From: Octopus vulgaris
Taxonomy: Eukaryota
Direction: 5' to 3'
Assembly (NCBI GenBank): GCA_951406725.2
Contig: OX597828.1
Location: 34,038,001-34,102,000, forward strand
DNA length: 64,000 bases
Below are positions 6,893 to 50,517 of the stretch, one piece after another. Position 1 is the stretch's first letter. Each line of letters starts with the position of its first letter. The position numbers and the translations under genes are program-made. The notes under the pieces are model-generated. The model was not told the DNA's origin. It made no database searches and saw only the letters and a list, made by a program, of their open reading frames with translations.

Positions 6893-7040
6893 TGTATGTA
6901 TGTATGTATGTATGTATGTATGTATGCATGTACCAGTATGGTGATTGCAAAGAGGAAAAATAGAACTCAAAATATGAGTATATGTATATTTTTATTAATA
7001 TTTAGCAGAAGCAACAGAGTGACTCAGGGTCTGAGAGTTT

Positions 7041-7098
<58 letters not shown>

Positions 7099-7344
7099 GC
7101 ATATATATACATATATATGCTTCACAAGAATATGAAATTCTTCTTTTTTTTGAAATGGTGGATCTTGAAGCAGTAACACTATAAATAATAGTGCGTAAAT
7201 ATTGGGTTAAAAACCCATTTTTGATAAGAAAAAATTCGAAGGCTGCTGCTCATGGAACTCAAACTTACATCTCTTGTAAACATAACAAGCATACTCTCAT
7301 TGTACCAAAGCAATCCTTTGAATTTCTCTATCCATTTTAGAAAC

Positions 7345-7350
7345 TTTATT
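7345..7350 (-). promoter_or_regulatory. Candidate poly(A) signal (AATAAA) of the Cys-scaffold/NDY-rich gene
   Basis: About 120 nt downstream of the TAA at 7472 on the minus strand. Confidence 0.35.
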
Positions 7351-7471
7351 CTTACCAGCGAGCACTGTATGTTGTTGACATCATAAGAATTTATAAATTT
7401 TGAGAGAATGTGTCTCCAGGAGATGTAGGTTTGTGTCTAAAATTAAAGTTTGTATGATTTGAATTACACAC

Positions 7472-7625
7472 TTATGTACCTGCAGATTCAGCTGACATAT
7501 CACAGTTCATAAAAAGACGTCCAAATTGATAGATCATGTTGTTAAGATTATACATAAAATTATCAGATTCCTGGTTGCAGACTTTCTTCATTTCATGAGA
7601 GCAGTCTCTCATCTTTGACATTCCT
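7472..7625 (-). CDS. Cys-scaffold/NDY-rich protein, probable terminal exon (GMSKMRDCSHEMKKVCNQESD...FMNCDMSAESAGT*)
   Basis: Acceptor tttatttacag|A completes the AG+A Arg codon left by the upstream exon (phase 2). Three Cys are spaced like those of exon 16282-16409. An alternative donor G|gtacat exists at 7480. Confidence 0.8.
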
Positions 7626-8365
7626 CTGTAAATAAAGGTAAAAGAAAACAAAAATGAAAGTTTGGAATTACAAATTGTTAAATGAATAAATTTTTGCTTT
7701 TGTTCTTTACTTGTTTCAGTCACTGGACTGCAGCCATTGCTGGAGCATGACATTGAAGGGTTAAGTCAAACAAACTCTTCCCCCACCCCCAGTATTTATT
7801 TTTCAAAATCTAGTACTTATTTTATGAGTCCCTTTTGTCAAACTGCTAAGTTATGTTGACGTAAACAAACCAACATTGGGTATCGCGAGGTGAAGGGAGT
7901 ATATACAAACACAAACACAAACACACAAACACACAAACACACACACACACACACAATAACATATCGAACATAGGTACTATTTAATGTTTTATATACCATA
8001 CACACATTTCAACCAATTACTGTCATAATTACACAACAGTTTTTGAATCATTATATAATGCTGCATTTCACCTCATCAGTGTTTAGCAACAAATGCAATG
8101 ATTGTGTGTTGTATTTTACAGCACCTTTACTTGATATATATATATATACATGACAAGCTTCCATACAGTTTCTGTCTACCAAATTCACCCACAAGGGATT
8201 GGTGAGCCTATGGCTACAGCAGAAGACACTTTCACAATGTACCATGCAGTAGAACTGAACCTGGGCCAACTTGGTTGCAAAGAGAGCTTCTTAAGCACAC
8301 AGCCATGTCTGCATCTAATGATAATAATAACTAAAGAACAGAGCGTATGAATAAGAAACACTTAC

Positions 8366-9389
8366 CTGCAAATGTCTGTGCGATATCTTACATCATAGTT
8401 ATAAAACGCCCAGTAATCTGGTCTACGTTCATTGGAATTATAGTAATTGTAACCATAGTTACGACCATCATAATCATAGTCTTGGTCATAGAACCTGTTA
8501 CGATCATAATAGTTGTTCCGATAGTGGTTATTATAGAATGGTGTATTCCTGTTATTCTCCCAGTCCTTGTCTTGTTCATAGGTACCATGGATGTCAGGTT
8601 TTAGTTTCTCAGCTTCAGGCTGGGGCTGTTCCTTGTCAGGTTCTTCTCGAGTTTCACGGTTCAGTCGCTCGAAGTTTTGATTATAGTAGTCGTTGCTGAA
8701 AAGGTCTGATCTTTGGGAGTGACTTTTCTGCCATCCATCATGGTTGTATTTCTTGTTGTAATAGTTATCATCATTGTCATAGTAACTGTTGTCATACCAA
8801 TGTCTTCTGTTGCCATCGTAGTCGTTGCCATCGTAGTCGTTGCCATCGTAGTTGTTGCGGCGATTGTTATCGTAATAGTTGTTCTTGTTATGCCAATTAT
8901 ATTTGTTCGCCCAGTAGTCACGGTTGTGGTCGGAATTATAGTCACGATTATGATCAAAGCCATTTCCAAAGTTACGTAGCCACTCGTGCATGTTGACATC
9001 ATCATCATCATCATCGCTTTCATTTTTAACACCATCCTTTTTGGCTGCAGAAGTGACAGTTTCTGTTTTAGCCGGAGCAGTTGCATCAGCTTGGAGTCCA
9101 GCTGTGCCAGTCTCAGAGAAAGGCGCATCAGGTTGCAATGCTTGGTCAGACCGATAGCCTTGACCTTGGTCATGAACTTGACCATCACCTTGCTTGTTAG
9201 GGTCATCCTCAAAATATCCCTGCCAATTGTAAGAGTTTGGATAGTTATGAAAGAAGTCACGATTGATATATTCATACTCATGTTCAAAGAAATTTCTGTG
9301 ATTCAGTTCTGAAGTTGTGTAGCAGTGCCTTATTTTCTCTTGGACATTGTTCTTGTTTGATTTGAAGCATTTCTGGAATTTCTGGTAAT
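8366..9389 (-). CDS. Cys-scaffold/NDY-rich protein, large 1024-bp exon (DYQKFQKCFKSNKNNVQEKIRHCY...NDY-rich...YRTDICR)
   Basis: Long pyrimidine tract and cttgtag acceptor (phase 1); TGCAG|gtaagt donor (phase 2). Open, non-microsatellite frame within the 392-aa ORF 8362-9540. Confidence 0.88.
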
Positions 9390-9571
9390 CTACAAGTTTG
9401 GTGAGGAGAGTAGAATATAAAAGAAAAAAAAAGAAAAAGAAAAAGAAAACAAACAGAACAAACACAGCAAAAAAAAAAAGGAAGAAAACAAACCAGACAA
9501 TATAGAAAAAGAGATAAGAAAACACAGGACTGAATAACAAAACTGAAAATGAGGAACTGAATCAGGTTTAA

Positions 9572-9795
9572 CCCTTTCGTGACCAACCTGCCTGAGAATT
9601 TCCTTGGTTTTATGATGTAAATTTCATGCGTTAAAGTGATATAAATTTAAACATTTCATCAAAATTTCTTGTTAATTTATGTTCCAAATATCAATTTAAA
9701 AATGGCAATGTTGCTTTTTTTAAATTCTTGTTTTATTTTCAAAATTAATTGAAACAAAGGCAGGGTTTTGCCATAGAAATATGGTAACAAAAGGG
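9572..9795. mobile_element. piggyBac-like MITE
   Basis: ttaa|ccctttcgtgacca...tggtaacaaaaggg|ttag. Related to 54061-54270. Confidence 0.55.
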
Positions 9796-10065
9796 TTAGG
9801 AGGAAATGAAATAGGTAGACGGGAAAGATAAAACAGAATGGATAAGTAATGCGCATGCACACACACACACAAATGTGTGTGTGTATCAATATGGCTTTGA
9901 TTAGGAAACAGCTTTTCTTTGGAACTTGTTACATTGAAAACGTGACTGTTAGAGTTTAATTATTTTTGTTAATGCTTTTTCGATGAACATTCTTATGTCC
10001 ATTAAATTTTTCTAGACCCTCTTGATCTCATCTTCTGTATGAAGTGGTGGTAGTGACAACATATA

Positions 10066-11324
10066 TAGGATGGGCAAGCAAAACTTTTGACAGGAATTTT
10101 TTGTAAACCTCATTTTTTTTATGTAGCATTGGTGTATTATAACAACTGTTTTTTTAATCTTATCTTCAGTATTAGGTCTCATAGTAACAATTTAATTTGC
10201 TTTCAGCTAAAGAAGCAATGAGACAATACTTTGCTCATTTGCTCTGCACAGGAATTGATATCAAGCAAATTTCTGAGTTGGTTAATGTGTTAATGTCTCA
10301 TTAAGCACAGTTTACAACATCAAGAATAATTTGGATAACATCAAAAGCATTCAGAGGAAGCAAGGCATTGGAGGAACCAATAAAAAGTGAAATCCAGCAT
10401 TCCTAAAGGCCCTCAAGTCTAACATTTTGAAGGATCCAACCACATCCACGAGGAAACTGGCAGTTGACATGGAAGTTGGTGCCAAGACTATAAGAAATTC
10501 TGTTCACTGTGATTTAGGCCTGAAATCCTTTGTGTCTCCTCCTAATCAATTCAATGAAGGCCAGGAGGCTTGAAAGGGCAAAGAAATGTGTGGTCCTTTC
10601 TCAAAAAGTCTGAATCCACTGTTTAAAATATTTTCTAATAAGAAAATCCTCACTGTGGATGCTGTTGTGAACAGATGAAATGATTAGTATATTGCTGAAT
10701 CACCATCTCAAGTCAAGGGTATCTTCAGAGCAAAGCATCCTGCTCAGGTGATGGTTTTGGGAGTTGTGGCATCAGATGGCCAAAAATGCTCCTGCATTTT
10801 TTCAAATCTGGTGAGAGAATTAGTGCTGATGCTTATTACTATGTGCTGAGATATCATGTTCTGCTTTGGCTTAAGGCTAATTACCCTGATGGTAATTATG
10901 TGTGGAATCAGGATGGGGCACTTGCTCATACAGTGAAAAAAGTGCAAACATTTTGCAAGAATAATTTTGCTGATTTTTGGCCCTCCTCCAGCCCAGATTT
11001 GAATCTGCTGAACTATTCAATTTGGAGCACTTTAGAGCAGTCTACCAACAGAACTTCTTATCCTAGAACTGAACATCTCAAGCAAGTTTTGAAGGAAGAA
11101 TGGGCCAAATTATCTGCACATTTTATAATAAAGACCTGTGGCACATTCAGACTCCGTATCCAAATGGTGATAGAAAATAAAGGTGGACACATTGAGTAGA
11201 ATCTCTATTATTGGCAGTTAATAACTTATGTATAAATAATTTTGCTATACATTGTCTCTTCCATGGACAATAAACCATTTCCAAATTCCATTTGGCTTTT
11301 CCAAGTTTTGCTCCCCGCATCCTG
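10066..11324 (+). mobile_element. Degenerate Tc1/mariner-superfamily transposon, maT/DD37D-like
   Basis: Relics IFSNKK (FSDEK), KHPAQVMVLGVVASDG, VWNQDGALAHT, WPSSSPDLNLLNY and terminal KGGHIE*. Degenerate TIRs taggatgggcaagcaaaactt / aagttttgctccccgcatcctg. Multiple stops and frameshifts. Confidence 0.8.
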
Positions 11325-11355
11325 AATGTGTGTGTGCATGTGTGTGTGTGTGTGC

Positions 11356-11386
<31 letters not shown>

Positions 11387-11458
11387 TGTGTGTGTGTGTG
11401 CATGTGTGTGTGTGCATGTGTGTGTGTGTGCATGTGTGTGTGTGTGTGTGTGTGTGTG

Positions 11459-11500
<42 letters not shown>

Positions 11501-12074
11501 TGTGTGTATACATGCATAAAGAGAGACAAGTCAATGCTAAATACAGCAATATAATAATACTGGCAAATATTCTTATGAGAGGAAGAATATATAAAAATAT
11601 ATAGATTAAAATTACATGGAATTTATGAAATATGCATAAAAATATGATGTGAGAACATTTTAACAAATAGAGTTGAAGGTAATACAGGATATACATTCAT
11701 GTAACATAAATTTTATTTTGATAAATTAATCAAAGAAATAGGGGAATACCCATGGCCTTTGCATGATTTCCCAGTCTCTTGAGATTGATGCAGTCAATGT
11801 TGAGTTAAAAACATTATATGAAATAAACTGTATTGGAAACAAAATATTTGGGTTTATGGTGAAATGATAATATAATAAAAGTAAATATATATAAAACAAA
11901 ACAAAGTGCAAAGGGAGAAATAATTTTTAAAAAATTGATAATATAAGATATATTTTTAAAAAGAATTTTGCTTGAGCTGCAGGATTCATAAGGCCAGTTA
12001 TCCAAGCTCGATGGCATAGAAGTGGTCAAGATCATATTACAACAAAATGCTGGTCTGTTGCTGGGTCCAAGGTT

Positions 12075-12260
12075 GGCTATCTTGAGGGGAGGAGACAAGT
12101 TAATTACGTTGACCCCAGTATTTCACTGGTACTTTATTTTATCAATCCAAAAGAGATGAAAGGCAAAGTTGGTGTTGGCAGGGTTTGAACCCAGAATGTA
12201 AAGCACCAGAAGAAATGCCACCAAGCATTTTGTCTGACATGCTAACAATTCTGCCAGCTT
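12075..12260 (-). mobile_element. tRNA-derived SINE family B
   Basis: Reverse complement of ggcgagctggcagaa..ttagca..gagttcaaattcc..ctttgcctttcatcc. Other copies at 19460-19672, 19695-19893 and 25125-25335. Confidence 0.65.
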
Positions 12261-12500
12261 TCTAACAATTCTGCCAGCTTGCTAACAATTCTGCCAGCTT
12301 GCTAACAATTCTGTCAGCTTGCTAACAATTCTGTCAGCTTGCTAACAATTCTGCCAGCTTTCTAACAATTCTGCCAGCTTGCTAACAATTCTGCCAGCAT
12401 GCTGACAATTCTGTCAGCTTGCTAACAATTCTGTCAGCTTGCTAACAAGTCTGCCAGCATGCTGACAATTCTGTCAGCTTGCTAACAATTCTGCCAGCTT
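12241..12500. repeat. 20-bp minisatellite (gctaacaattctgccagctt) x13
   Basis: Thirteen in-register units with few variants (ctgtc, ctgac). Confidence 0.95.
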
Positions 12501-13230
12501 TATTATACAATAAATACTGATATACAAGATTTTTATTTATTTAATTATGCAAACAATAATCAAAATTAAGTTTAGCAAATGAATTCTTTCTCAGAATCTG
12601 TACCTGTACGATTTTCTTTTTTTTTTTTGTTGGGTGAGGAAAATTCTTTGTTTCCTTTCTTTTGGTTTCTATCACTTGATATGTTGCAATGAGTCTGTTT
12701 TGTACACATCCACAAGTTGTTGACTCGGTACTGTGAGAAGGGGAATTTGGCAAGTCAACAACATGTGGATGTGTGCACCACACACAAAAACTTCAAAGTA
12801 TCAGGAAGGAAACAGGTGTTGAAGACAATAGGTGTAAAAAAATATATTAACATGGTTATCAAAAAAGACATCATGATTCAATATTATTATATTCATTTAT
12901 TAATCAATACTGTTGATGCAATGATGGATTGATTAATGGATTGGATCATTAAACTCCATTTTATGTTTTGTGGTTGTTAATTTACACTTTGTTTTTTGTT
13001 TGTTTGCTTTGTCACAGAGGATTCCACACCAATCAACAAGAGTCATATTCTTACCTGAATACAGATCTTGCAACTGACACATGCAAAATTGTTAAAGATG
13101 AGAAAACTACGGGAATTAAAAACATAACAGTAAACTACTATAAAAGCACATAGAATTTGTGTGTGTGTATATATATATGTATATATGAATGTTAAATGTT
13201 TTTGTATATATGTGTGTGCATATATGTATG

Positions 13231-13309
<79 letters not shown>

Positions 13310-13359
13310 TGATAGAAAAATGTACCTCCACCAACTACTCTGCCTATATATCTGCGCTT

Positions 13360-13545
13360 GCCTTTCAATGCTGCTTATGCCATAAGATCTGAAAATCTAA
13401 TTGAAGGTTTCTAAAGACATTTTAAGATTCACAAAGATCAGAACTAAACTGCAGCTCTTCATGGTCCAAAGCAGATATGCAATCTATGTGGGTGTCTTTT
13501 CAATACGTTGTCTGGTTTAAAAAGCCACATCAGACCCCATGATGT
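13360..13545 (+). pseudogene. Decayed double C2H2 zinc-finger segment, probably the C-terminus of an RTE-type LINE ORF
   Basis: [17 protein letters not shown] and QICNLCGCLFNTLSGLKSHIRPH, with stops and frameshifts, between (TA)n tracts. Confidence 0.5.
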
Positions 13546-13591
13546 AAGTACAAGAGGTAGTCAGACTCTGCATAAGGAGTAGATGACCACC

Positions 13592-13646
<55 letters not shown>

Positions 13647-14640
13647 TTGGAGGTGACTCCTGGTCATCAGCGTCACTCAAGTTCATTACAGATTTCTCAT
13701 AAGACACATGCCTGCTCGAAGAATTTCACATTTTTCTGAAATATTTCTAACCTCAAATGGCTTATTTGTTTTATATCTAGCACTATGTCTTTCTCTATTT
13801 CTAAGTTAAGGGTTAAAATAAAGCAATCCTGCAAAACACAACTGATCTTTGCACACAGACACACAGAACAACAGCAATCAAATAATGACCACGGAGTGCA
13901 CAGCAAACATCACCGATCTGACTGTTGTCTGTCCTCTTGCCCTGAGATGCCAGTTAGTCTTTTACACCTACCAGGCTCGTTCGTATTAGCCTGAGTGAGT
14001 TGCTGGATAATTTTTCATTCCTTTAAGAATATTGTAGAACGGAAACTATTCATATATTGGAATTTAAATCCTAATCTCTATAGAAATTTATTGTTTCAAG
14101 AAAAAATTTAATTTGAATTACTTTTAATTTTTACGATTATAGATAACAACTCGGGCTGTAACTTCTGAGCCTGAGTCAGGTGTGTGTGAACGATGTCAAG
14201 AGAATGTCTGCTACGAATGATATTTTTTTACACAGGGCACCTCTAAGACGACAACCAGATGCTGAACGCAAATAAATGAACTGCGACCAGGCTCAATAAA
14301 AGGAGCCTGAGTTATCGGCTGCAATTACATAATTGAAGTCAGTGTTGGCAGAAATTAAATCATAACACCTTGATTGAGTTAGCTTCCCTATTGCGCTTGA
14401 AGGTTTCCAGAATCATTCCTCTGCAGCAGTTGAATTGGCAAAAAAGAAAATTCTTGGCTATGTTGTCTGTTGTTTAAATTCATTTTGTTTTCTGGCCTGA
14501 AGTTACATCTTTGTATCTGAGACCTTTGGGCTCAAAATGTCAATTGGTTAAAATGTCATTTGCTTTATGGAAGAAAGAACAAGAGAGAGAGAAAGGTGGG
14601 GAAGAGGATGTGAGAGAGAGGGAGAAGAAGAAAGAGAGAA

Positions 14641-14686
<46 letters not shown>

Positions 14687-14849
14687 TGACTGAGAAAAAT
14701 TCTTTACATTGTTACAACTTCTCTTATAAAGTTTCATATTGTCGGTATTTCCTACTCATTCTTTCTCAAAATAAAAAATTACTAAGACAATCACACCTTG
14801 TCAGGAAGCTATGGAAGATACTTAGATTTCATAAACATACATAAATAAG

Positions 14850-14933
<84 letters not shown>

Positions 14934-15342
14934 CATAACTGTATTTATTCATGTATAAGTCACATCCCTAATTTAGTGGTGGATCTTGGTCCCTGAATTT
15001 TTTCCCTTCATAGTTTTTGCTCTGCTCTGTATGTAAGTTGCATCCCAGCTTCTTTGGTTAAAATGAAGTATAAAATAGCGATGGTGTGACTTGTACATAA
15101 GTACGTATGATATGTGTGTGTCTGTATGAAAGTCTCGTCTATTTTTTTGATTATTATAAATCTTTGGGATGTAGTTAACACAGACAAATGCATGCATGTA
15201 TGTATGTATGTATGTATGTATGTATGTATGTATGTATGTATGCATGTATGCATGCATGTACGTATGTATGTACGTATGTATGTATGTATGTATGTATGTA
15301 TGTATGTATGTATGTATGTATGTATGTATGTATGTATGTATG

Positions 15343-15565
15343 TGTAGCGGTAGCTGATATCCTCACTGTTTGAGAGACACAGCAGGAATGATCTCAATGA
15401 GATTACAGCCATCTTTGGCTGGGTTGTTCCTGTTGTGTCCACTGATCTGATTGGTTGACATGTGGCGCGGTTTGTCTCTACTTTATTTCGTGCCACTGTC
15501 CAAAGCCAACTAATCACGGCTCCTGTTGTGTCTCTCAAACAGTGAGGATATCAGCTACCGCTACA
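15343..15565. mobile_element. MITE with ~45-bp TIRs, TGT...ACA ends and an apparent 4-bp TSD (Ginger-like)
   Basis: tgtagcggtagctgatatcctcactgtttgagagacac.. / ..gtgtctctcaaacagtgaggatatcagctaccgctaca, flanked by tatg on both sides inside (TATG)n. Confidence 0.8.
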
Positions 15566-15970
15566 TATGTATGTATATATGTATATATGTATGTATGTAT
15601 GTATGCATGTATGTATGTATGTATGTATGTATATATGGTGAGAATTTACAGTTAGGTATATTTGAAGAAGGAAAAGAATGACTTCACTGGTAGTTCTAAT
15701 CAATTTAATTTTCTAATAATATAATTTGACAGTTTGGCTTGTAGATCTAGAACTGAAAAATTTATATTATATTATTAGAAAATCAAATTGATTAGAACTA
15801 CCTTTTTCAAATATATATACATATGTGCATATAAAGATTACAGCGAATGGAAAATCCAAAGTTTTGGATAGAATTCTTCAAATAAAAGTTGAAAGGAGAG
15901 GAATTAATGGGACACAGCAGCGTAAAATAAGACTTTGCTGCCTTTCATTAATTTTTCTCCTTTCAAATTT

Positions 15971-16003
15971 TCTCTGAAGAAGGACTCTGTCTGAAACGTT
16001 GGA
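15971..16003 (+). ncRNA. Minimal hammerhead-ribozyme-like motif (Penelope-type)
   Basis: ucu CUGAAGA a ggac-ucu-gucu GAAAC GUU gga. It forms one arm of an inverted pair at 15845-16014. Confidence 0.55.
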
Positions 16004-16281
16004 TTTTCCATTCCTCACTGCAGGTTCATTGGACTCTTTGTATCATTTTTACTTTATAATATCAGTCTTGCTAATGCAGACCAACACTAGCCTCTTTAGA
16101 GAATGTCAGATCATATGCATGTGTGTGAGTGTCTGTGTGAGTGTGTGTGTGTGCGCGCGTGTGTGTGTGTGTGTGTGTGTATGGATGCACATATCATCAA
16201 CAGTATTAGACAGCAAGTATGGATTAGTTAGATAAGACTGAAAAGAGCAAGTCTTGAGATCTTGCCTATTAGCATAAATAC

Positions 16282-16409
16282 CTTTCCATCCGTTATAGCA
16301 GAAGTAATGAAAGCTTGTGTTCAGTTGTTTCAAAGCACTCTGTCTAGTTGTCTGACCACAAGAACCTTCAATTCTGTCCATGCAGTATACAATATCAGTC
16401 TGCAAGACC
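16282..16409 (-). CDS. Cys-scaffold/NDY-rich protein, internal exon (VLQTDIVYCMDRIEGSCGQ...FHYFCYNGWK)
   Basis: Acceptor ttttaatgtag|G (phase 2, completes CAG); donor AAAG|gtattt (phase 1, G+AT = Asp joining the exon at 9389). 128 bp, open. Confidence 0.82.
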
Positions 16410-16474
16410 CTACATTAAAACATTGCAAAAATATTCTTTCAATGCTTAGAATGGTAGTTTTAATTTTGAAATTA

Positions 16475-17600
16475 TTAGGTTGTCAAGAAAGTTCTTGCAG
16501 TTTTTAACCTTTAAATTCAGATGCACATATCTCAACTCAAACGAAACTTTATTGATCAAAATAAACACCATCAGAATCAACACAGTTTTGCCAATGCGAA
16601 ACAAGTTTATTTATGCCAGTAGCGTAAAAATCCTGCTTTGTGGTGGCGATGAAGTCACTGAAGGTGTGTTTGGCATCGTCTTGGATTTTGTAACATTTCT
16701 GACGCAGGAAGTTGCTGAGATGCTTGAAAAAGTGGTAGTCGGTAGGCGAGAGGTTTGATGAGTGTGGCAGATGAGGCAGAGTTTTGTAGCCCAATTCGTT
16801 CAACTTCTGCAGGATCAGTTGTGCAACATGGGGCCGAGTGTTGTGGAAAAGAATTGGTCCTTTTCTATTGACCAATGCTGGCTATTGTCAGAGTTTCTTA
16901 TGCATTTCATCCATTTACTGACAGTACTTCTCTGCTGTAATGGTTTCACCTGGATCCAAAAAGCTGTAATGGATGAGACCAGCCACAAGCCACCAAGCAG
17001 TCACCATGGCCTTCTTTTCGTGAAACTTTGGCTTCGAGAAGTGCCGTGGAGCTTCGTCCAACCACTGAACTGAGCATCGCCGGTTGTCGTAAAGAATCCA
17101 CTTTTCATCGCAAGTCACAATCCAGTTGAGAAATGGGTCATTCTTGTTGTGTAAAAGTAGGGAAGACAATGCTTCAAAACAGGGTTTTTGTTTTGGCTGT
17201 TGTTCAATTCGTGCAGCACCCATTTTTCAAGTATTTTTGTTTTTTCAATCTCTTTCAAGTGGTTGGAAATTGTTGTATATGTTACGTCTAATTCAGAAGC
17301 AAGCTCTATAACAGTTGTGCATGGATTGACTTCGACTAAGGCTCTTAGTTGATTGTTGCCAACATCTGATGGCCGACCACTATGCTTATCATCTTCAAGA
17401 CTTTCGTCACTGCTATGAAATTTCTTGAATCACCATCGAGCTGTACATTCATTAGTGGTTCCTGGGCCAAATGCATCGTTGATATCATGAGCTGTTTCAG
17501 CAGCTTTTCGGCCTAGCTTGAACTAGAATAAGAAAATTGTGCGAATTTGCTTTTTGTCCATGTTGTATTCAACATTCCGGAAAAAATGGTCTAATTATTC
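16475..17600 (-). mobile_element. Degenerate mariner, cecropia (Hsmar1-like) subfamily
   Basis: Starts MDKKQIRTIFLF*FKLGRKAAETAHDINDAFGPGTTNE at 17561; also [24 protein letters not shown] and LPHSSNLSPTDYHFFKHL. One TIR, ta|ttaggttgtcaagaaagtt, at 16475; the other end was not found. Confidence 0.88.
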
Positions 17601-18427
17601 AAACTATGTTGGCATAGGTAAGACTGTTTGACTGGAGCTGGTAAACCGGAGAGCTGCACCAGACTCTGCTCTGTTTTGGCTTGGTTTCTCCAGCTAGATA
17701 CCCTTCCCTACTCCAACCACTGTACAGAGTGCACTGGGTATACTTTACATGTCACCAGCCTGAGTGCCTTTTGCATATTACTGGCACAGGTGCCTTTTAT
17801 GTGTCACCGTCACAGGTCACGCCCACGATTTCACTTAGCTTGATGTATCTTCTCAAGCACAGCAAATCGCCAGTATGTATGTATGCATGTGTGTGTGTGT
17901 GTGTGTGCACGTGTGTATGTGTGTGTGTGTGTGTGTGTATTTGTGTGTCTCCTTGTCTTGACATCATGTACTGCTTGTAAACAAGCATCACTGTCATACA
18001 AGCAGTGTTGTTCCTTTCAAGTCTTCTGTGAAAAATATCTTTGGCCATGGGAAACTATTACCTTGCTGGGAAATAGGTGATGGTTGGCCACAGGAAGAGC
18101 ATCCAGCCATACAAAATCAGCCACAACAAATTCTGTCTGACTCATGCAAGCAAGGAAAAGTGGACATAAAATGATGATGAGGTTTTAGATATTTGGATAT
18201 TTCTCAAGATAAGTTATGTTAGAATCTTTGAACAGTTTTGGAATTATTTATCACATGTTGTTATCTTTCAGGGAAGTGTGGGGCTTATGGTAGGGTTGGA
18301 GTTGGGGGTGGCATGAAGTCAGAACTTATTATTGTAGGTAAGATGGCAGAGAGAGCAGGACATTGAAATTCTTCATTGGAAATGTAGGATCACCACGTAT
18401 TTCTCTTTTACAAATGCAACATGAACA

Positions 18428-18780
18428 TCACCACCACCACCAATAACACCACAACCACCACCACCACCACCACCAATACCACCACCACCAACAACACCAC
18501 CACCACCACCACCACTACCACCACCACCACCACCACCACTACCACCATCGTCGTCACCACCACCACCGCCGTTGCCGCCACCACCACCACCACCACCACT
18601 ACCACCATCGCCGTCACCACCACCACTGCCGTTGCCGCTGCCGCCACCACCACCACCACCACCACCACAACTACCACCATCACCGCCGCCACCACCACCA
18701 CCTCCACCGCCGCCACCACCACCACCACCACCACCACCACCACCACCACCACCACCACCACCACCACCATCATCATCATT
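18428..18780. repeat. Degenerate (ACC)n/(GCC)n trinucleotide tract
   Basis: Directly visible; produces spurious poly-T, poly-P and poly-V ORFs. Confidence 0.95.
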
Positions 18781-20060
18781 TAGCTGTTGTTATCTTACAC
18801 CATGGATTTGACAATAATGGCACCCCATTCATGGTGAAATTTGTCAAAACAATCCATGGTTGTGAACAGATGTTGACTGTATCTTCTCATTAAGCTCGCT
18901 AATTGTCCTCTTCATACTCTAAGAATTATTTGATGTGTTTGATGTTTACATAGCAAGACATTCCAACCAATGTCCAAATGACTGTCAGATAGCAACCTTC
19001 TTCATTATCATCATCATCAGCAGCATTTTAACAATCATTTTTCTATACTAACATGGGTAGACAGAATTTGCCAAAGCATATTTTCTACAGCTGGATGCTC
19101 TTTCTGTCACTAACCCACGCCTATTTCTAAGCAAGTTAATATTTCCCTGTGGCCAGACATGTTTTCATGGGAGACTGGAAATGGATGACACCATCTGTAA
19201 GACAGTGATGCTTGTTTACAACTATCATGTGATGGCAAGATAAAGAAATGCACACACACACATAAACACAGAGGTAAATATATGATGGGCTTTTTTCAGT
19301 TTCCATCTACTAAATTCACTCAAAAAGGCTTTGTTTGGTTCAGGGTTGTAGTTGAAGACACTTGCCCAATGTGCCAAATTGTGGGACTGAACCCAAAACC
19401 ACATGGTTGGAAAGTGGACTTCTTAACCCCTCAGACTTGCCTTCATTTATTCTTCATAATATTGGTTCCAAATTTTGGCACAAGGCCAGAAATTTTGAGG
19501 TGAGTGGGTAAGTCAATTACATCGACCTCAGTACCCAACTGGTATTTATTTTATCAACCCCTAAAGAATGAAAGGTAAAGTTGACCCTGGTGGAATTTGA
19601 ACTCAGAACATAAAGACAGATGAAATGCCGCCGAGCTTTTCATCTGGCATGCTAACAATTCTGCCAGCTCACCCATTTCTTTATTAACCATAATATTCCT
19701 TTCCACTCTAGGCACAAAGCCTGAAATTTTGGGGGAGGGTGCCAGTCGATTTGATTGACCCCAGTACACAACGAGTACTTAATTTATCGACCCTGAAAAG
19801 ATGAAAGGCAAAGTCGACCTTGGTGGAATTTGAACTCAGAATCTAAAGACAGACGAAATACCGCTAAGCATGCTAAAAATTCTGCCAGTTCACCATTTTG
19901 TTTATTAACCAGGATATTAAAACAAATATTTTTTTGACATTTCTCAAAGATTAATATAATCATTTCAATTTTTTGGTTTCATTTCATTTGATTTTTGTGT
20001 GTGTGTGATTCAAGAATTAATTGAAAAGATTAAAAAATGAAAAATAAATGGAAAACTTAC

Positions 20061-20229
20061 TGGCACATATTATCAAAATCTTGTTTGTTGAATTGCAGGT
20101 GAGAAGTTCGTCTGAGACGATGGTACTGCTGTTTCATAGTCTGGTAAGCTGGATAGAAACAGCTCATCATTGACTGTGTGATACAGGTCCCCATGGTGGT
20201 AGTGGACTGTTCCATACTATGGCCACAGA
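20061..20229 (-). CDS. Cys-scaffold/NDY-rich protein, most upstream exon found ([30 protein letters not shown]...QDFDNMC)
   Basis: Acceptor cttccttgcag| (phase 1); donor TGCCA|gtaagt (phase 2). 169 bp, open, complex sequence amid microsatellites. Confidence 0.82.
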
Positions 20230-22375: not shown

Positions 22376-23824
22376 TCATCATCATCATAATGGTTTAACA
22401 TCCGTTTTCTGTGCTAGCACGGGTTGCATAGTTCGACTGGGGTCTGGGAAGCCAGAAGGCTGCACCAGGCTCCAGTCTGATCTGATAGTGTTTCTACAGC
22501 TAGATGCCCTTCCTAACGCCAACCACTCTGTGAGTGCAGTGGGTGCTTTTTACGTGCCACCAGCACAGGTAACATGACTACAATTTCCATTTGATATTTA
22601 TTTTGATGTTGATGTACTTGACTCAATAGGTCTCCTCAAGCACAGCAGGTCACCCTACGATCCAAGGTAAGCACAGCAGGTCGTTCTGCAATCCAAGGTA
22701 CTTTGGATGGGCTGGGGCTGCTATGCGAAACTGGTGCGGGAAACAGCCATGAACTCACTTTATTTGTCGGGTCTTCGCAGTCACAGCATATCTCCAGAGA
22801 TCTCTGTCTTTCGTCATTGCCTCTGTGAGACCCAATGTCATGCTTGACCACCTCATCCCATGTCTTCCTGGGTCTACCTCTCCCCCGGATTCCTTCAACT
22901 GTTTTGGAGTGGCTCTTCTTCACACATCTCTCCTCATCCATCCTTTGTACATAACCATACTAGTGCAAACGTTTCTCTTGCACACCACATCCAATGCTTC
23001 TTATGTCCAACATTTCTCTCAGAGCACTTACACTCTGTCGTGTGTGCACACTGACATTACACATCCAGCAGATCATGCTAGCTTCATTTCTTTCAAGCCT
23101 ATGCATGTCCTCTGCAGACACAGCCCATGTTTCACTACCGTGAAGCATGGCAGTTCATACACATGCGTCGTACAATCTACCTTTCACTCTGAGCGAGAGA
23201 CCCTTTGTCACCAGTAGGGGTAGAAGCTTTCTAAACTCTGCCCAGGCTGTTCGTATTCTAGTGGTGACACTCTCTGAGCATCCACCTCCACTACTAACTT
23301 GGTCACCTAGATAGCAGAAACTATCAACTACTTCTAGTTTCTCCCCCTGGAGTGTGATGGAATCTGTTTTCTGAGTATCTGTGGTGACTATTGCCCCTGT
23401 GCAACTGCCACACATGAAAGCTATCTTCTCGGTTAATTTTTCCTTTGATGTTACTGCACCTCTTATGCGTCCATAGCTTACACTGGGTACATCTTATGGA
23501 GTTTCTACCTACACCTTTTCTACAGATCGAGCAGGGCCACCTACCTTAGGGGGTGTGTGATGAGTTCGCCTTCCTACTTACTAGAACTTTGGTCTTTGCT
23601 ACATTGACTCTAAGGCCTTTTGATTCTAAACCTAGCTTCCACACCCGAAATTTCTTTTCTAGTTCCGGTAGTGATTCTGCTATGAGGGCCAGGTCATCGG
23701 CATAGAGGAGCTCCCAGGGGAAACTTGTCTTGAATTCCTCTGTTATTGCCTGGAGGACTATGATAAATAAAAGGGGACTAAGGGCTGAACCTTGGTGGAC
23801 CCCTACTTCTACCCGGAATTCTTC
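22376..23824 (-). mobile_element. 5'-truncated, decayed RTE-clade LINE (RT C-terminal half, PHD-like finger, 3' UTR)
   Basis: GVHQGSALSPLLF, LLYADDLAL, GLRVNVAKTKVL, FCYLGD, HGSETW and GRGRPRKTW; ends in an (ATG)n tail. Confidence 0.92.
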
Positions 23825-27789: not shown

Positions 27790-27995
27790 ACCGCGTGTGT
27801 ACCGTTGGCCATTTTTTTTTTCCATTGTCTTCCTTTCCTTGGACCTTTCCTTTTCCTATGTTTCTGACGAAGAGCTCCGCTCGAAACATTAAACCCTCCT
27901 TCTTTCCTTCTTTCCTGAGCGTCCAATAATACTATACTTGTTCCACGTCCTCGCATTGTTGTGTTTTCTCTTTGTGTTTTCATGTTTGGATTAAC
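27545..27995 (+). mobile_element. Two short (TA)n-embedded Penelope-LTR-like modules, each with a minimal hammerhead-like motif (27609-27644, 27860-27894)
   Basis: cuuu CUGUUGA a gagc-guag-gcuc GAAAC GUA aaag and guuu CUGACGA a gagc-ucc-gcuc GAAAC AUU aaac. Sister copies at 32720-32910(-), 33820-34010, 60620-60780 and 61390-61570(-). Confidence 0.6.
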
Positions 27996-28011
27996 TATAT
28001 ATATATATATG

Positions 28012-28960
28012 TACCTTGAGAGAAAAGTTGAACCTAAGAAGCATCAGTTGTGGTGTGCAAGAGAGACAGCTGCGCTGGTATGGTCATGTGACGAGAATGG
28101 CTGAAAATAGTTGTGTGCAAAAGTGCTACACCCTAGCAGTTGAGGGAACCTGTGGAAGAGGTAGACCCAGGAAAACCTGGGACGAGGTGGTGAAGTACGA
28201 CCTTCGAACATTAGGTCTCACCAAGGAAATGACTAGAGACCGAGACCTATGGAAGTATGCTGTGCGTGAGAAGACTCGGCAAGACTAGTGAGGCCATAAC
28301 CCGTGGCTCCTACTTGGGACGTAGTCAGTCCACCTGTGCATACCTTCCTTCTTGTGACACTTGTGAAGACCTGTTGAGGCAAGTGAAAACCAAAAACCAA
28401 ATCAAAATAGATGAACATCAATGGAATTTGTATCTTTTTGGTACCAGTGCCGGTGGCACATAAGAAAACCATCCGAACATGGCCGTAGCCAGTACCGCAT
28501 CGACTGGCCTCCGTGCTGTGGGCACGTAACAAACACCATCCGATCGTGGCCGTTCACCAGCCTTGTCTGGCACCTGTGTCGGTGGCACATAAAAAACACC
28601 ATCCGAGCGTGGCCGTCTGCCAGCCTCATCTGGCACCTGTGTCGGTGGCACATAAAAAACACCATCCGAGCGTGGCCGTTCGCCAGCCTCATCTGGCACC
28701 TGTGTCGGTGGCACATAAAAAATACCATCCGAGCGTGGCCGTTCGCCAGCCTTGTCTGGCACCTGTGTCGGTGGCACATAAAATCACCCACTACACTCTC
28801 AGAGTGGTTGGCGTTAGGAAGGGCATCCAGCTGTAGAAACACTGCCAGATCTGACTGGCCTGGTGCAGCCTTCGGGCTCCCCAGACCCCAGTGGAACCGT
28901 CCAACCCATGCTAGCATGGAAAGCGGACGTTAAACGATGATGATGATGATGATGATGATG
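28012..28960 (+). mobile_element. RTE-clade LINE 3' fragment with a 63-bp tandem repeat in the 3' UTR
   Basis: LRWYGHVTRM..GRGRPRKTWDEVVKYDLR. ggtggcacat recurs at 28581, 28644, 28707 and 28770. (GAT)n tail. Confidence 0.88.
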
Positions 28961-38167: not shown

Positions 38168-40491
38168 TAGATATAGATATATATATACATATATATATTT
38201 TTACTTACACATGCATACTTATGTGTGTGTCTGTGTGTGTATGCATGTATGTATGTGTATACATGTAGGCACATGCATAGCTGTGTAGTTAAGATTCTTG
38301 CTTTTAAACTCCATGTTTCCGGGATCAATCCCACTGCACCATACTTTCGACAAACTAATGTCTGCCACTATAACCCCAAGCCAGCAAAAGCCTTGCGAGT
38401 GGATTTGGTGAATGGAAACTGATAGAAGCCCATTACATGTGTATATGTGTTGATGGGTGTTTTTGTCGTATTTACTTGCTCATTGTAAAAAGAAATCTGT
38501 TCTGAAAATATGTCTGGCCATGGAACAATTTGTGTTTGAAGGACCAGAGGAAAATTTCGCTAGATTGGAAACAAGTCAGGGTTGACCAGGATCATGACAG
38601 TAGCTTTATAGGTCCCTGGGCACTGGACCCTATAGTATCTATTTATTGACAGCAAGCCATAGCATACATAGATTAGAGTTGTGCCCTAAACACCTGAAGC
38701 CCTTGGATAACTGTCCAGTGTGCCCATGCCTTAAGGCATCCTTGGTGTTGGTGAGAGGAAGAGCACCCAGTTGTAAAAAAGATCTAATTCCCTAAAGTGC
38801 TGCTGATGCATGCAAGCATGGATCAAAAAAGTGCACATCAAAAAATATAGATGATGATGATGATGGTTGTGATGATGGTGATGATAATGATGCTTACACA
38901 CGCACATACATATGCATATATATTTATATATATATGAAAAACAGTTAATTAATTAATTAATTAATGATATATCAATATAAGACTAATCACTTCAAGATTA
39001 TCAATCAGGTAGAAAGGAGTTGGTTTGACTTACCCATAATTGAGAAAAAAAAGACGACCAATGTCAGAAGGAACTTCATGTTGTGCTCCTCTTGTCTCAA
39101 ATCTGTCTTACTGAGAAGTAACGTTTACGAGGCTATCTCTTATATCAGGGACTGAGTCCCTCAGGTGAAAAGACAATGGAGAAACACTCAGCAGTGTGTT
39201 TTCTTCAGTTATACACCTGGTGGGATACAAAGGAAAGAACCTGGGAGAAAGAGGAAGGTGAGGAGTTAAGATAATGAGGGGAATAAGAGAGGGAGGGAGG
39301 GAGGGAGGAAAGAGCAATATGGTAGAAGTGAAAGAGAAAGAGAGAGAGAGGGGGAGGAGGAGGAGGAGAGAGAGAGAAAGGAAAAGACATTTGCAAGTGA
39401 CTGGTTGATTGAATGGTGAGTGACCATGTGACTGACTGATTGGCCTGAGGAAAATTGGCCAAAATGGGATAAAGAAGTAATGAGAAAAATAGTTAATTAA
39501 TACCCTGGATATTACCGATTTCCACTCTTAGAGGAAGAAGTGGTGGAGAGAAGGGAATGGGGGAAAGCAGAGGAATTTGAAAGCTGGGTGCTTGAGTGTC
39601 TGGGGTGGCATGGCTATGGATTTGTGTGTTCTATAAATTGAAGAGTGGGTGGCATTCTGCCAGATTTTAGAAGTGAAATGTGGAGAGTAAAACAAAAGAG
39701 AAAGAAAAGATATATATATATATTTATAGGATAGGCATTCTGCTTCTGTTATTGTTGTTGTTTTTGTTTAGCCCTTGAAATAAGTTCTGATCAAGATCTA
39801 TATAAACAAAGGCACAGTTTGGTCATGACCCTCACGTTTATATATAAAAATATGTATATTTACGTGCGGGTGGCACGTAAAAAGCACCCACTACACTCAC
39901 GGAGTGGTTGGCGTTAGGAAGGGCATCTAGCCGTAGAAACACTGCCAGATCTGACTGGGCCTGATGAAGCCTTCCAGCTTCACAGACCCCAGTTGAACCG
40001 TCCAACCCATGCTAGCATGGAAAACGGACACTAAATGATGATGATGATGATGATATACTCTTGTTACTCTTTACACTTTTACTTGTTTCAGTCATTTGAC
40101 TGTGGCCATGCTGGAGCACCGCCTTTAGTCGAGCAAATCGACCCCGGGACTTATTCTTTTGTAAGCTCAGTACTTATTCTATCGGTCTCTTTTGCCGAAC
40201 CGCTAAGTGAGGGGGACATAAACACACCAGCATTGGTTGTCAAGCAATGCTAGGGGGGGGGGGCACACACAAACACACACACACATACATATATATATAT
40301 AAATATATATATATACATATATACGACAGGCTTCTTTCAGTTTCCGTCTACCAAATCCACTCACAAGGCATTGGTCAGCCCAGGGCTATAGCAGCAGATA
40401 CTTGCCCAAGATGCCATGCAGTGGGACTGAACCCGGAACCATGTGGTTGGTTAGCAAGCTACTTACCACACAGCCACTCCTGCACCTATAC

Positions 40492-42231: not shown

Positions 42232-42771
42232 TAGAGAAAAACCACTATTACGTAATTCAAACAATGATAGATGTAGATCATGCCATATAGAAAAAATAAA
42301 ATATATGATAAAACATTTACCCAGATCACAATAAAGTACATAATAATAAACAATATATAATTCATATTATATATTAATTATATACTCTTTATTATTATGT
42401 ACTGTATTGTGATGTAGGTAAATGTTTTATTATATATTTTATTATATATTATTTATTATATATTATTTATTATATATTTTATTATATATTTTATTATACA
42501 TTTTACAACACTGAACACCTTTTTGATCTCCATGTGTCTAACACACGTGGACATGCCTACAAAGTCAGAAAACAACACAGCTCCCATGACTTTCGGAAAC
42601 ATTTTTTCACGCTCAGAGTTGCTGAAGCATGGAATAAACTGCCTGCGTCAGTTGTTGACTGCCATGACACTGCATCCTTTAAGGCCCTCATGCTTTCCGA
42701 AATCCGCCGAAACTACACCTGATTATATATACACTTTAGATGAGTTGTAGTGCACCTGAGCACTGTACACA

Positions 42772-48406: not shown

Positions 48407-48968
48407 ATAATAATAATAATAAACATTGTGTACAGTGCTCAGGTGCACTACAACTCATCTAAAGTGCATATTTAATCAGGTGTAGTTTTGGCGGATTTCG
48501 GAAAGCATGAGGGCCTTAAAGGATGCAGTGTCATGGCAGTCAACAACTGATGCAGGCAGTTTATTCCATGCTTCAGCAACTCTGAGCGTGAAGAAATGTT
48601 TCCGAAAGTCATGGGAGCTGTGTTGTTTTCTGACTTTGTAGGCATGTCCACGTGTGTTAGACACATGGAGATCAAAAAGGTATTCAGTGTTGTTATTGGT
48701 GAGGTGGTTGACAACTTTGTGGGCATTTACCAAGTCTGTCGCCAGACACCGGAGCTTCAGTGAATCCATGCCCAGGGAAACAAGGCGCTCAGAATATGGT
48801 AGGTGTCTGATGGAGGGTATGCGTTTGGTTGCATGTCTCTGAACAGATTCCAGGAGGTCAATGTTCTGAGCAAGATAGGGGTTCCAAACTGATGATGCGA
48901 ATTCCAAGTGTGGTCGTACCATAGCTGTATACAGTTTTAAATAGATGGCTGGAGAGCGGCTAACAAAG
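48407..48968 (-). mobile_element. 5'-truncated CR1-clade LINE inserted in the satellite
   Basis: Open frame LYTAMVRPHLEFASSVWNPY..LESVQRHATKRI..YSERL..TRGH..WNKLP. (TTA)n tail at about 48407-48421. The satellite resumes with gaggatctgaca at 48969. Confidence 0.92.
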
Positions 48969-50517
48969 GAGGATCTGACATTGTTCCATTTGAATAGGAA
49001 ATTGACATCTGAGGAAGATTTGACTGCTATTTCTAGTAAGTCAAGCAACTATTTAGGGGATCTGACATTGGTAGTATAGAAAGATCTGAGGGAGATTTGA
49101 CTGCTATTTCTAGCAAGTCAGGCAACTATTTAGTGGTTCTAAAATTGGTCCATTACAATAGTAAAGAGAGATCTGAGGGAGATTTAACTGATATTTCTGC
49201 AAGTCAAGCAACAATTTAGGGCATTGGTCCTTTAGAATACTAGAGAGAGATCTGAGGGAGATTGACTGCTGTTTCTAGCAACTCAAGCAACTATTTAGAG
49301 GATCTGACCTTGGTCCATTAGAATAGGAAAATGTGATCTGAGGGAGACTTGACTGCTAGTTCTTGCATGTCATGCAACAATTTATGGGATCTGATATTGA
49401 TCCATTAGAAAATACTGAGAGATTTCAGGGAGTTTTTGACTGCTATTTCTTTTGCAAGTTAAGCAACAATTCAGAGGATCTGACATTGTTACTTTAGAAT
49501 AGAAAAGGTTGATATGAGGGCGATTTGAATGTTATTTCTAGCAACTCAAGGAACTATTTAGATGATCTGACGTTGGTCAATTAGAATAGAAAAGTGTTAT
49601 CTGAGGGAGATTTGAAAGCTATTTCTAGCTAGTCAAGCAACTATTTAGTAGATCTGATATTGGTCCATTACAATAGAAAAGTGTGATCTGTAGGCGATTT
49701 GACTGCTATTTCTAGCAAGTAAAGCAACAATTTAGAGGATATGACATTGGTGCATTAGAATAGAAAAGTGAGATCTGAGGGTGGCTTCACTGCTATTTCT
49801 AGCAAGTCGAGCAACTATTTAGATGATCTGTCATTGATCCATTGCAATTGAAAAGTGTGATCTGAGGGAGAGTTGACTGCTATTTCTAGCAAGTCATGCA
49901 ACTATTTAGGTCACTGGATATTGGTCCATTAGAAAGTAGAGAAAGATTTGAGGGAGATTTGACTGCTATTTCTAGGAAGTCAATGAAATATTTAAAGAAT
50001 CTGACATTGTTCCATGGGAATAGAAGTGTTATCTGAGGGTGATTTGACTGCTATTTCTAGCAAGGCAAGCAACTATTGAAGGGATATGACATTGGTCCAT
50101 TAGAATTGACAACTGTGATATGAGGGCGATTTGACTGATATTTCCAACATGTCAAGTGCTTATTTAGAAAATCTGACATTGGTCCATTAGAATTGAAAAT
50201 TGTGAACTAAGGGTTATTTGATTGGTGTTTCTAGCAAGTCAAGACACTATTTAGAGGATCTGATATTGGTCTATTAAAATTGAAATGTGTGATATGAGTG
50301 ACTTTTGACTGCTATTTCTAGCAAGTCAGACAACTATTTGGAGGATCTAGCATTGGTCCATTAGAATAGAAAAGTTTGATGTGAGGTAGATATGTCTGTT
50401 GTTTCTATGAAGTCAAGCAACTATTTTGATGATCTCTCATTGGTCCATTACAATTGAAAAGTGTGATCTTAGGGCGATTTCACTGCTATTTCTAGCAAGT
50501 CAAGCAACTATTTAGAT

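What the first reader, a model, noticed from the sequence alone, without database searches (positions are those of the whole stretch)
7472..20229. Unnamed protein: twin six-cysteine scaffold split by a ~315-aa Asn/Asp/Tyr-rich insert
Seen: four exons (20229-20061, 16409-16282, 9389-8366, 7625-7472) splice in matching phases to about 490 aa. After an N-terminal xCG there are 12 Cys in a 6+6 pattern, and the two halves share intron position (NMC-Q / DIC-R, both phase 2). Between Cys 2 and Cys 3 of the second half lies a huge low-complexity insert. Known: the spacing resembles DUF19/T20D4.11-like secreted helical proteins, and nacrein is a molluscan precedent for an Asn-rich repeat inserted into a folded domain. 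Inference: a lineage-specific secreted matrix, adhesive or biomineral protein whose disulfide clamp closes a giant disordered loop.
Basis: partly seen in the sequence, partly recalled or inferred. Interest (0 to 1): 0.75.

Follow-up and report, generated by a model that had tools for sequence, protein, structure and literature searches.

The report
Octopus secreted protein with giant loop
This spliced octopus gene encodes a likely secreted protein made of two copies of an old cysteine-rich helical module, one of which has grown a 300-residue, tyrosine-rich, predicted floppy loop that argonauts also keep, so it likely helps to build or glue an extracellular material.

Summary
The four exons are real and spliced in public contigs, but they are only the middle of the gene. 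It has ten coding exons and 719 aa. It runs from a signal-peptide exon (39079-39034) through the insert-bearing 12-Cys module to a second, insert-free 12-Cys module encoded left of the window; residues 15-719 equal Octopus vulgaris CAI9733820.1. Both modules, and an insert-free paralogue on the same contig, share the exon phases 1|2|1|2|1. The insert exon has 1024 nt against 136 and 148 in its twins. The module is a divergent DUF19/CPG4-like helical unit, below Pfam cut-offs. The insert keeps its length (300-317 aa) and its aromatic/spacer blocks in Argonauta and in a distant unnamed orthologue at 34% identity, and the split scaffold is more conserved than the intact one. Best guess: a secreted matrix protein whose disulfide-closed loop self-associates. 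Function and tissue are untested. Verdict: a new architectural variant of a known, uncharacterised family.

The parts
39034..39079 (-). Coding exon 1: signal peptide (15 codons + 1 nt, phase-1 donor)
   Evidence: Found by scan. The first 18 residues of the spliced product equal the O. sinensis RefSeq model XP_036365820.1.
20061..20229 (-). Exon 2 (169 nt, phase 1 to 2): end of signal peptide, Cys1-3 of module 1
   Evidence: the loose end behind 16409 equals its 3' end in 4 of 4 runs
16282..16409 (-). Exon 3 (128 nt, phase 2 to 1): Cys4-6 of module 1; its twin in module 2 is also 128 nt
8366..9389 (-). Exon 4 (1024 nt, phase 1 to 2): Cys7, Cys8, the insert, Cys9. Its twins are 136 nt (module 2) and 148 nt (paralogue)
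8371..9321 (-). 317 codons between Cys8 and Cys9: three aromatic N/D/Y/R-rich blocks separated by two aromatic-poor spacers; 45% NAY codons against 21% in the scaffold
   Evidence: pLDDT below 50 over residues 128-465 in the full-length model
8809..8858 (-). 15-nt tandem repeat (five-residue unit, 3.3 copies); one unit is missing in frame in organism B and in O. sinensis
   Evidence: (table 4)
7480..7625 (-). Exon 5 (146 nt, phase 2 to 1): Cys10-12 of module 1. The long form splices on to five exons left of the window (G000:C15:34034886-724, 34033428-301, 34032040-1905, 34030842-700, 34003424-348) that encode module 2 and a 33-aa tail
7472..7479 (-).
   Evidence: contigs covering 7121/7308-7509 are listed for X9 and X10, and 7121-7335 for X3
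7345..7350 (-). AATAAA, candidate polyadenylation signal of the short form
   Evidence: the X10 read-through contig ends at 7308; use of the signal is not shown

Best explanation
The gene encodes a spliced, likely secreted and unanchored 719-aa protein of two tandem 12-cysteine modules predicted to be helical, and the first module carries a 300-residue predicted-disordered loop that likely lets the protein self-associate into, or bind within, an extracellular matrix. Shown: exon structure, splicing of four exons, the four-exon duplication, growth of the insert inside one exon, and conservation of its length and block pattern. Predicted: signal peptide, no GPI or membrane tail, helical fold, disordered loop. 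Inferred: the insert sits at the tip of a helical hairpin, and Cys8-Cys10 and Cys7-Cys11 would bridge across it and close it as a loop. Its three Tyr/Trp/Phe/Arg-rich blocks would act as stickers and its acidic spacers would bind calcium, so that the protein condenses after secretion, while the helical modules bind a partner. Read-through at exon 5 would give a one-module form that keeps the loop.
For: Signal exon matches RefSeq. No hydrophobic tail (best 15-residue window in the last 30 residues -0.35, against 2.15 in the paralogue type P0015). Profiles of insert-free modules hit module 1 at profile positions 3-116 and 124-172 (residues 30-149 and 446-494 of P0008). They score 40.6, 22.4 and 18.7 bits (the last with no row from this gene family's module 2), with 0 of 500 Cys-fixed shuffles reaching any of these. 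The Cys8-Cys9 gap is 300-317 in the full-length orthologues and 21-28 in module 2 and in five single-module proteins. The module 1 scaffold is 85-93% identical to Argonauta and 67-79% to P0011, against 72% and 57% for module 2; the insert is 60% and 34%. The aromatic/spacer alternation holds in 4 of 4 sequences profiled. In the module 2 model, Cys8 and Cys9 lie on helices 180-203 and 208-224, joined by a 4-residue turn.
Against: No evidence on tissue, location or binding. The 12-Cys relatives have no known matrix function, and the paralogue has a GPI-like tail that suggests a cell-surface role. The insert has no Ser-Gly sites in O. vulgaris and no regular repeat typical of structural proteins. 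Net charge varies from -6 to -26, which weakens a strict calcium-binding role. The full-length model is poor (pLDDT 36) and the module model moderate (61). Disulfide pairs were not measured. A plain pairwise alignment of module 1 with module 2 was within the shuffle range (score 62, shuffle maxima 71 and 79), so their kinship rests on profiles and exon phases.
Confidence: 0.42

Rival explanations
1. A secreted ligand or ligand-binding protein of the neuritin/RGM-N kind: the helical modules bind a receptor or growth factor, and the loop is a spacer or a platform for tyrosine sulfation that tunes range or avidity.
For: Weak Pfam NRN1 (E 2.7e-4) and RGM_N (E 0.069) hits in a snail relative. RGMB-N (6z3m_C, Z 5.5, rmsd 4.3, 74 of 74 aligned) and RGMC-N (4ui1_C, Z 4.7, rmsd 3.9, 71 of 72) align to the second half-module. 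The scaffold is strongly conserved. 8-15 tyrosines per insert lie in acidic context.
Against: Those Z scores tie with unrelated bundles, and Foldseek found nothing at E<=0.001. The octopus proteins themselves give no NRN1 or RGM hit. There is no GPI tail.
Confidence: 0.2
2. A granin-like or pro-protein: the acidic, aromatic loop drives packing in secretory granules and is then cut out or cut into peptides, leaving a two-chain module held by disulfides.
For: The insert is acidic (pI 4.7) and holds several basic pairs and R-x-x-R sites, one of them in a conserved island in 4 of 4 octopod sequences. The inferred cross-insert disulfides would hold the halves together.
Against: No basic pair is conserved at both ends of the insert. 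The R-x-x-R site is lost in P0011. No Gly-Lys-Arg-type amidation site is conserved.
Confidence: 0.15
3. An ordinary DUF19/DUF1397-like haemolymph or defence protein whose loop grew by slippage of NAY-type triplets and is merely tolerated.
For: 45% of insert codons are NAY, in runs of up to 10. A repeat unit varies in frame between close species. The Atlas lists DUF1397 at 0.82.
Against: Insert length is held at 300-317 aa, with a shared block pattern and conserved islands, at only 34% identity to P0011.
Confidence: 0.18
4. A mis-joined or non-coding artefact.
For: The runs are only guessed to be RNA, and the 7480-to-module-2 joint was not visible in the cut output.
Against: Canonical intron skips in 4 of 4 runs. 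Three independent gene models. A continuous 657-aa two-module product on a contig of 2.4 kb.
Confidence: 0.02

Closest known systems
DUF19 / T20D4.11-like proteins (PF01579), e.g. Pomacea canaliculata PVD20977.1, PVD31117.1, XP_025076180.1
   Same: Signal peptide; 12 Cys with the same spacing, all invariant in alignment A4; predicted helical; Atlas top hit 0.88
   Different: Those have one module of 184-299 aa with a Cys8-Cys9 gap of 21-27. This protein has two modules and a 317-residue gap. Identity is 15-22%, and there is no DUF19 hit in the octopus protein.
CPG4 domain (PF15481); C. elegans CPG-4 chondroitin proteoglycan
   Same: Best Pfam hit (E 1.6e-6, 29 bits, 3 stretches). CPG-4 is an 84-kDa proteoglycan core protein with 35 predicted attachment sites mostly in its C-terminal half (PMC2063922, one passage read), so it too has a long extra region.
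   Different: Below the cut-off of 32.7. No Ser-Gly in P0006. The extra region lies inside a module and is N/D/Y/R-rich.
Insert-free paralogue at G000:C15:75.06-75.22 Mb (69-73% identical to P0015)
   Same: Four module exons with phases 1|2|1|2|1 and the same Cys positions; P0015 passes the CPG4 cut-off
   Different: The P0015 type has one module and a hydrophobic GPI-like tail; the third module exon is 148 nt; identity to either module is 13-23%.
RGM N-terminal domain and neuritin
   Same: Weak profile hits in a relative; full-length structural coverage of RGMB-N and RGMC-N
   Different: Scores are not above background; no GPI tail; no RGM Pfam hit in the octopus protein
Nacrein / N66
   Same: A molluscan secreted folded domain plus an Asn-rich stretch (bioRxiv 10.1101/2021.07.10.451900, passage read; that the repeat lies inside the domain is recalled)
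   Different: No carbonic-anhydrase domain and no GN repeat here; analogy only

Membership tests
DUF19 (PF01579) | Pfam score at or above the curated cut-off (23.2 bits) | tested here: not met
   No DUF19 row at E<=10 for P0006-P0009; snail relatives reach 18-21 bits
DUF19-like 12-Cys helical proteins (broad) | 12 Cys in two groups of six, with the spacing of annotated members | tested here: met
   12 invariant Cys in A4; module 1 matches colinearly around the insert, 0 of 500 shuffles reach the score
DUF19-like 12-Cys helical proteins (broad) | Signal peptide | tested here: met
   Hydrophobic N-terminal exon equal to the RefSeq start; judged by hydropathy, no dedicated predictor
DUF19-like 12-Cys helical proteins (broad) | All-helical fold | tested here: met
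   Predicted only: no strands in either model; module 2 blocks mostly pLDDT 70-88
DUF19-like 12-Cys helical proteins (broad) | Disulfide connectivity | not testable with these tools
   Model coordinates are not returned; the pairing is inferred from helix boundaries
CPG4 (PF15481) | Pfam cut-off 32.7 bits | tested here: not met
   29 bits, E 1.6e-6
CPG4 (PF15481) | Many Ser-Gly glycosaminoglycan sites | tested here: not met
   0, 4, 1 and 2 SG in P0006, P0007, P0009 and P0011
RGM-N / neuritin | Shared three-helix disulfide fold | tested here: inconclusive
   Z 5.5 and 4.7, tied with unrelated bundles
RGM-N / neuritin | GPI-type hydrophobic tail (feature recalled) | tested here: not met
   Hydrophilic tail in 3 of 3 long forms
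Nacrein / N66 | Carbonic-anhydrase domain with GN repeat | tested here: not met
   No such Pfam hit; Gly is 5% of the insert
Reflectin | Met-Asp spaced repeat (motif recalled) | tested here: not met
   0 matches in 4 of 4 sequences; no Pfam hit
SepECP egg-case proteins | 50-55 Cys, strongly cationic | tested here: not met
   PMC4500399 section 21 against 25 Cys and pI 5.5 here
clkA-like Ser/Thr kinase (name of XP_014782791) | Protein kinase domain | tested here: not met
   No kinase Pfam hit in P0009; the name probably comes from Asn-rich composition (inference)

The most novel reading that the evidence does not exclude
Cephalopods turned an ancient neuritin/RGM-like helical module into a materials protein by growing a sticker-and-spacer block polymer out of NAY-triplet slippage inside one exon. 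The result is a disulfide-closed 300-residue loop that phase-separates after secretion, and a 3'-end switch makes one-module or two-module forms to tune cross-linking.
Probability: 0.17. Interest if true: 0.72.

Novelty: new variant of a known kind. Interest (0 to 1): 0.42.

Why it matters
The gene carries its own control. The same exon exists with and without a 296-codon expansion inside one protein, and again in a paralogue, so one can test directly how a disordered material-like segment arises inside a folded domain and what it adds. If the loop condenses or binds mineral, it is a new cephalopod biomaterial design and a first functional handle on molluscan DUF19/CPG4-like proteins. It also corrects a kinase name on the O. 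bimaculoides record. Without tissue or biochemical data it remains an unusual architecture in an uncharacterised family.

Tried and rejected
Pfam on the four single exons: 0 hits. Atlas on the insert exon: no usable hit. Own-genome searches with single exons found only the gene itself at meaningful scores. DUF19 and CPG4 family searches found nothing over cut-off; they work exon by exon and are weak. PDB sequence searches: 0 hits with A2 and A4 at E<=10, and only chance exosome rows with P0013. Foldseek: no match at E<=0.001. VIA: none at Z>=8; this does not show a new fold. No RNA holder was listed as RNA on record, and four same-species runs held next to none of the words; neither is used as evidence. 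Contig depth was not used to rank isoforms. The test of whether the two halves of module 1 pack together was not available, so that step stays open. The module tree groups modules by position but is too shallow to date the duplication. Paper searches: 0 hits for the accessions, for clkA with octopus, for cephalopod tyrosine-rich proteomics and for neuritin/RGM/DUF19/CPG4 together. DUF19 searches listed 13 and 3 papers, none on this protein by title or abstract. Searches were uninformative listings. No supplements were searched, and the gene could be listed in one under another id. Passages of PMC8700984 and PMC9635652 added nothing. Three papers asked for by recalled id were not held.
Full report
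1. Observation. The four exons are at the stated places and join in frame to 490 aa with 13 Cys; the intron phases are 1|2|1|2. A stop-free frame over the 1024-nt exon was seen in 0 of 2000 shuffles. Twenty of 24 listed runs, from 8 studies, hold this exon; their RNA status is a guess by the tool. I laid 4 of them on 7000-16700. The 7625/8366 joint with GT-AG ends is in 4 of 4. Contig X9-23 carries three exons back to back. The loose end behind 16409 is the end of exon 20229-20061 in 4 of 4.

2. The gene is larger. A search with the 42-aa exon among longer proteins returned O. vulgaris CAI9733820.1 (705 aa) and Argonauta hians GAB1605186.1 (682 aa). Cluster members are O. sinensis XP_036365820.1 (714 aa) and O. 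bimaculoides XP_014782791 (named a clkA kinase, with no kinase domain). The O. sinensis start equals the signal exon I had picked at 39079-39034. Five more exons lie 3-35 kb left of the window. The ten exons give 719 aa, and residues 15-719 equal the O. vulgaris model. In the contigs, exon 5 pieces stop at 7480, the donor, in 4 of 4 runs. Pieces running on to 7308 or 7121 start at 7509 in X9 and X10, an overlap of 30 letters that is typical of a branch in such assemblies (inference). An AATAAA lies at 7350-7345. The onward joint was not visible in the cut output. The long form rests on three gene models and on a continuous 657-aa product on a 2.4-kb contig of a distant relative.

3. Architecture. 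Exon lengths are 46 | 169, 128, 1024, 146 | 163, 128, 136, 143 | 77, and the phases 1,2,1,2,1 repeat exactly. Module 2 is therefore a four-exon duplicate of module 1, and the insert is a 296-codon growth inside one exon. A single-module paralogue 41 Mb away on the same contig has the same phases and a 148-nt third exon. The two modules are only 21-26% identical, and their pairwise score alone is not above shuffles. Profiles of insert-free modules match module 1 in two colinear pieces around the insert, with 0 of 500 Cys-fixed shuffles reaching the score for any of three profiles.

4. Family. A search of 1.84 billion representatives with module 2 gave 6 hits: Argonauta, the unnamed orthologue P0011 (49% identity), three Pomacea proteins and P0015. 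Pomacea records are labelled DUF19 domain-containing. The word-based search added two more Pomacea proteins and no other two-module protein. Pfam gives CPG4 below cut-off for the octopus protein. Across the 12 rows of A5, CPG4 is hit by 9, DUF19 by 5, and NRN1, DUF1397 and RGM_N by 1 each at E<=0.5. The Atlas ranks DUF19 0.88, CPG4 0.87 and DUF1397 0.82, all leads only. The model of the distant orthologue's module 2 is all-helical (pLDDT 61 overall). Structure searches gave nothing clear; the RGM N-domains appear with full coverage but tie with unrelated bundles. The protein works like a DUF19/CPG4-type helical disulfide module but passes neither Pfam cut-off.

5. The insert. It is 317, 312, 307 and 300 aa in O. 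vulgaris, O. sinensis, O. bimaculoides and Argonauta and 300-314 in the P0011 cluster. Identity to O. sinensis is 60% for Argonauta and 34% for P0011. Yet three aromatic blocks separated by two aromatic-poor spacers persist in 4 of 4 sequences profiled, with short conserved islands at both ends and in the middle. P0011 has fewer Asn and more Tyr and Arg. It is predicted disordered (shallow alignment). 45% of its codons are NAY, and one five-residue unit varies in frame between close species, which fits growth by slippage. The scaffold around it is more conserved than the intact module 2, so it very likely still folds. In module 2 the equivalent place is a four-residue turn between two helices. 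By symmetry about that turn and by Cys spacing I infer the pairs 1-5, 2-4 and 3-6 in each half. That would put two bonds across the insert. This was not measured.

6. Mechanism. I favour a secreted matrix component whose closed loop self-associates through aromatic and Arg contacts and binds calcium (0.42); the sticker-spacer logic is general knowledge, not tested here. Rivals: a neuritin/RGM-like ligand (0.20), a tolerated expansion in a haemolymph or defence protein (0.18), and a granin-like or excised pro-region (0.15). Against excision, basic sites are not conserved at both ends, and P0011 lacks the central R-x-x-R site. I have no tissue data.

7. Comparison and novelty. Nacrein, reflectin, SepECP and kinase membership all fail their tests. 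No paper in the library names the accessions; supplements were not searched. Papers seen: PMC2063922 (one passage), PMC4500399 (abstract and section 21), bioRxiv 10.1101/2021.07.10.451900 (passages; tables are images), PMC8700984 and PMC9635652 (passages). Two unchecked notes of this scan describe other giant in-exon insertions in the same genome, which suggests the phenomenon recurs in octopus and lowers the surprise a little. The taxon of P0011 is unknown, so a range beyond octopods is likely but not shown. Verdict: real, a new variant of a known uncharacterised kind, interest 0.42.

Noticed in passing
G000:C15:75060223-75221712 (L012-L015): Insert-free single-module paralogue, 69-73% identical to P0015 (which has a GPI-like tail and passes the CPG4 cut-off), with the same four intron phases
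   Followed up: partly
P0009 / XP_014782791.2 (O. bimaculoides): Named 'probable serine/threonine-protein kinase clkA' but has no kinase domain; the model also stops early in module 2 and has a different N-terminus
   Followed up: partly
P0006 / CAI9733820.1: The O. vulgaris model starts at the last Met of the signal exon and so lacks 14 residues of the signal peptide
   Followed up: yes
window 9096: Organism B contigs read a substitution giving Leu to Ile in the insert, as in O. sinensis P0008
   Followed up: partly
window 16552-17429 (-), 901-1601, 10699-11196 (+): Broken transposase-like fragments in introns; 16918-17226 hits Pfam Transposase_1 (E 3e-18); the others resemble Tc1/mariner by eye only
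   Followed up: partly
window 48479-49048 (-), 22639-23493 (-), 27995-28285 (+), 42378-42747: Fragments that look like ends of LINE reverse transcriptases by eye; two of them were scanned and gave no Pfam hit
   Followed up: no
window 39079-64000: No other clear protein-coding exon seen upstream of the signal exon in the part of the six-frame list that was shown; an AG at about 39111 could mark a further non-coding 5' exon
   Followed up: no
G000:C15:34030700-34003424: A 27-kb last intron precedes a 77-nt terminal exon; the 33-aa Tyr/Met-rich tail is conserved (82% to Argonauta, 48% to P0011)
   Followed up: no
P0006 residues 355-360 and 491-497: A similar Pro-Glu-Ala motif occurs in the second spacer of the insert and in the linker between the modules, in octopods and partly in P0011; unexplained
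   Followed up: no
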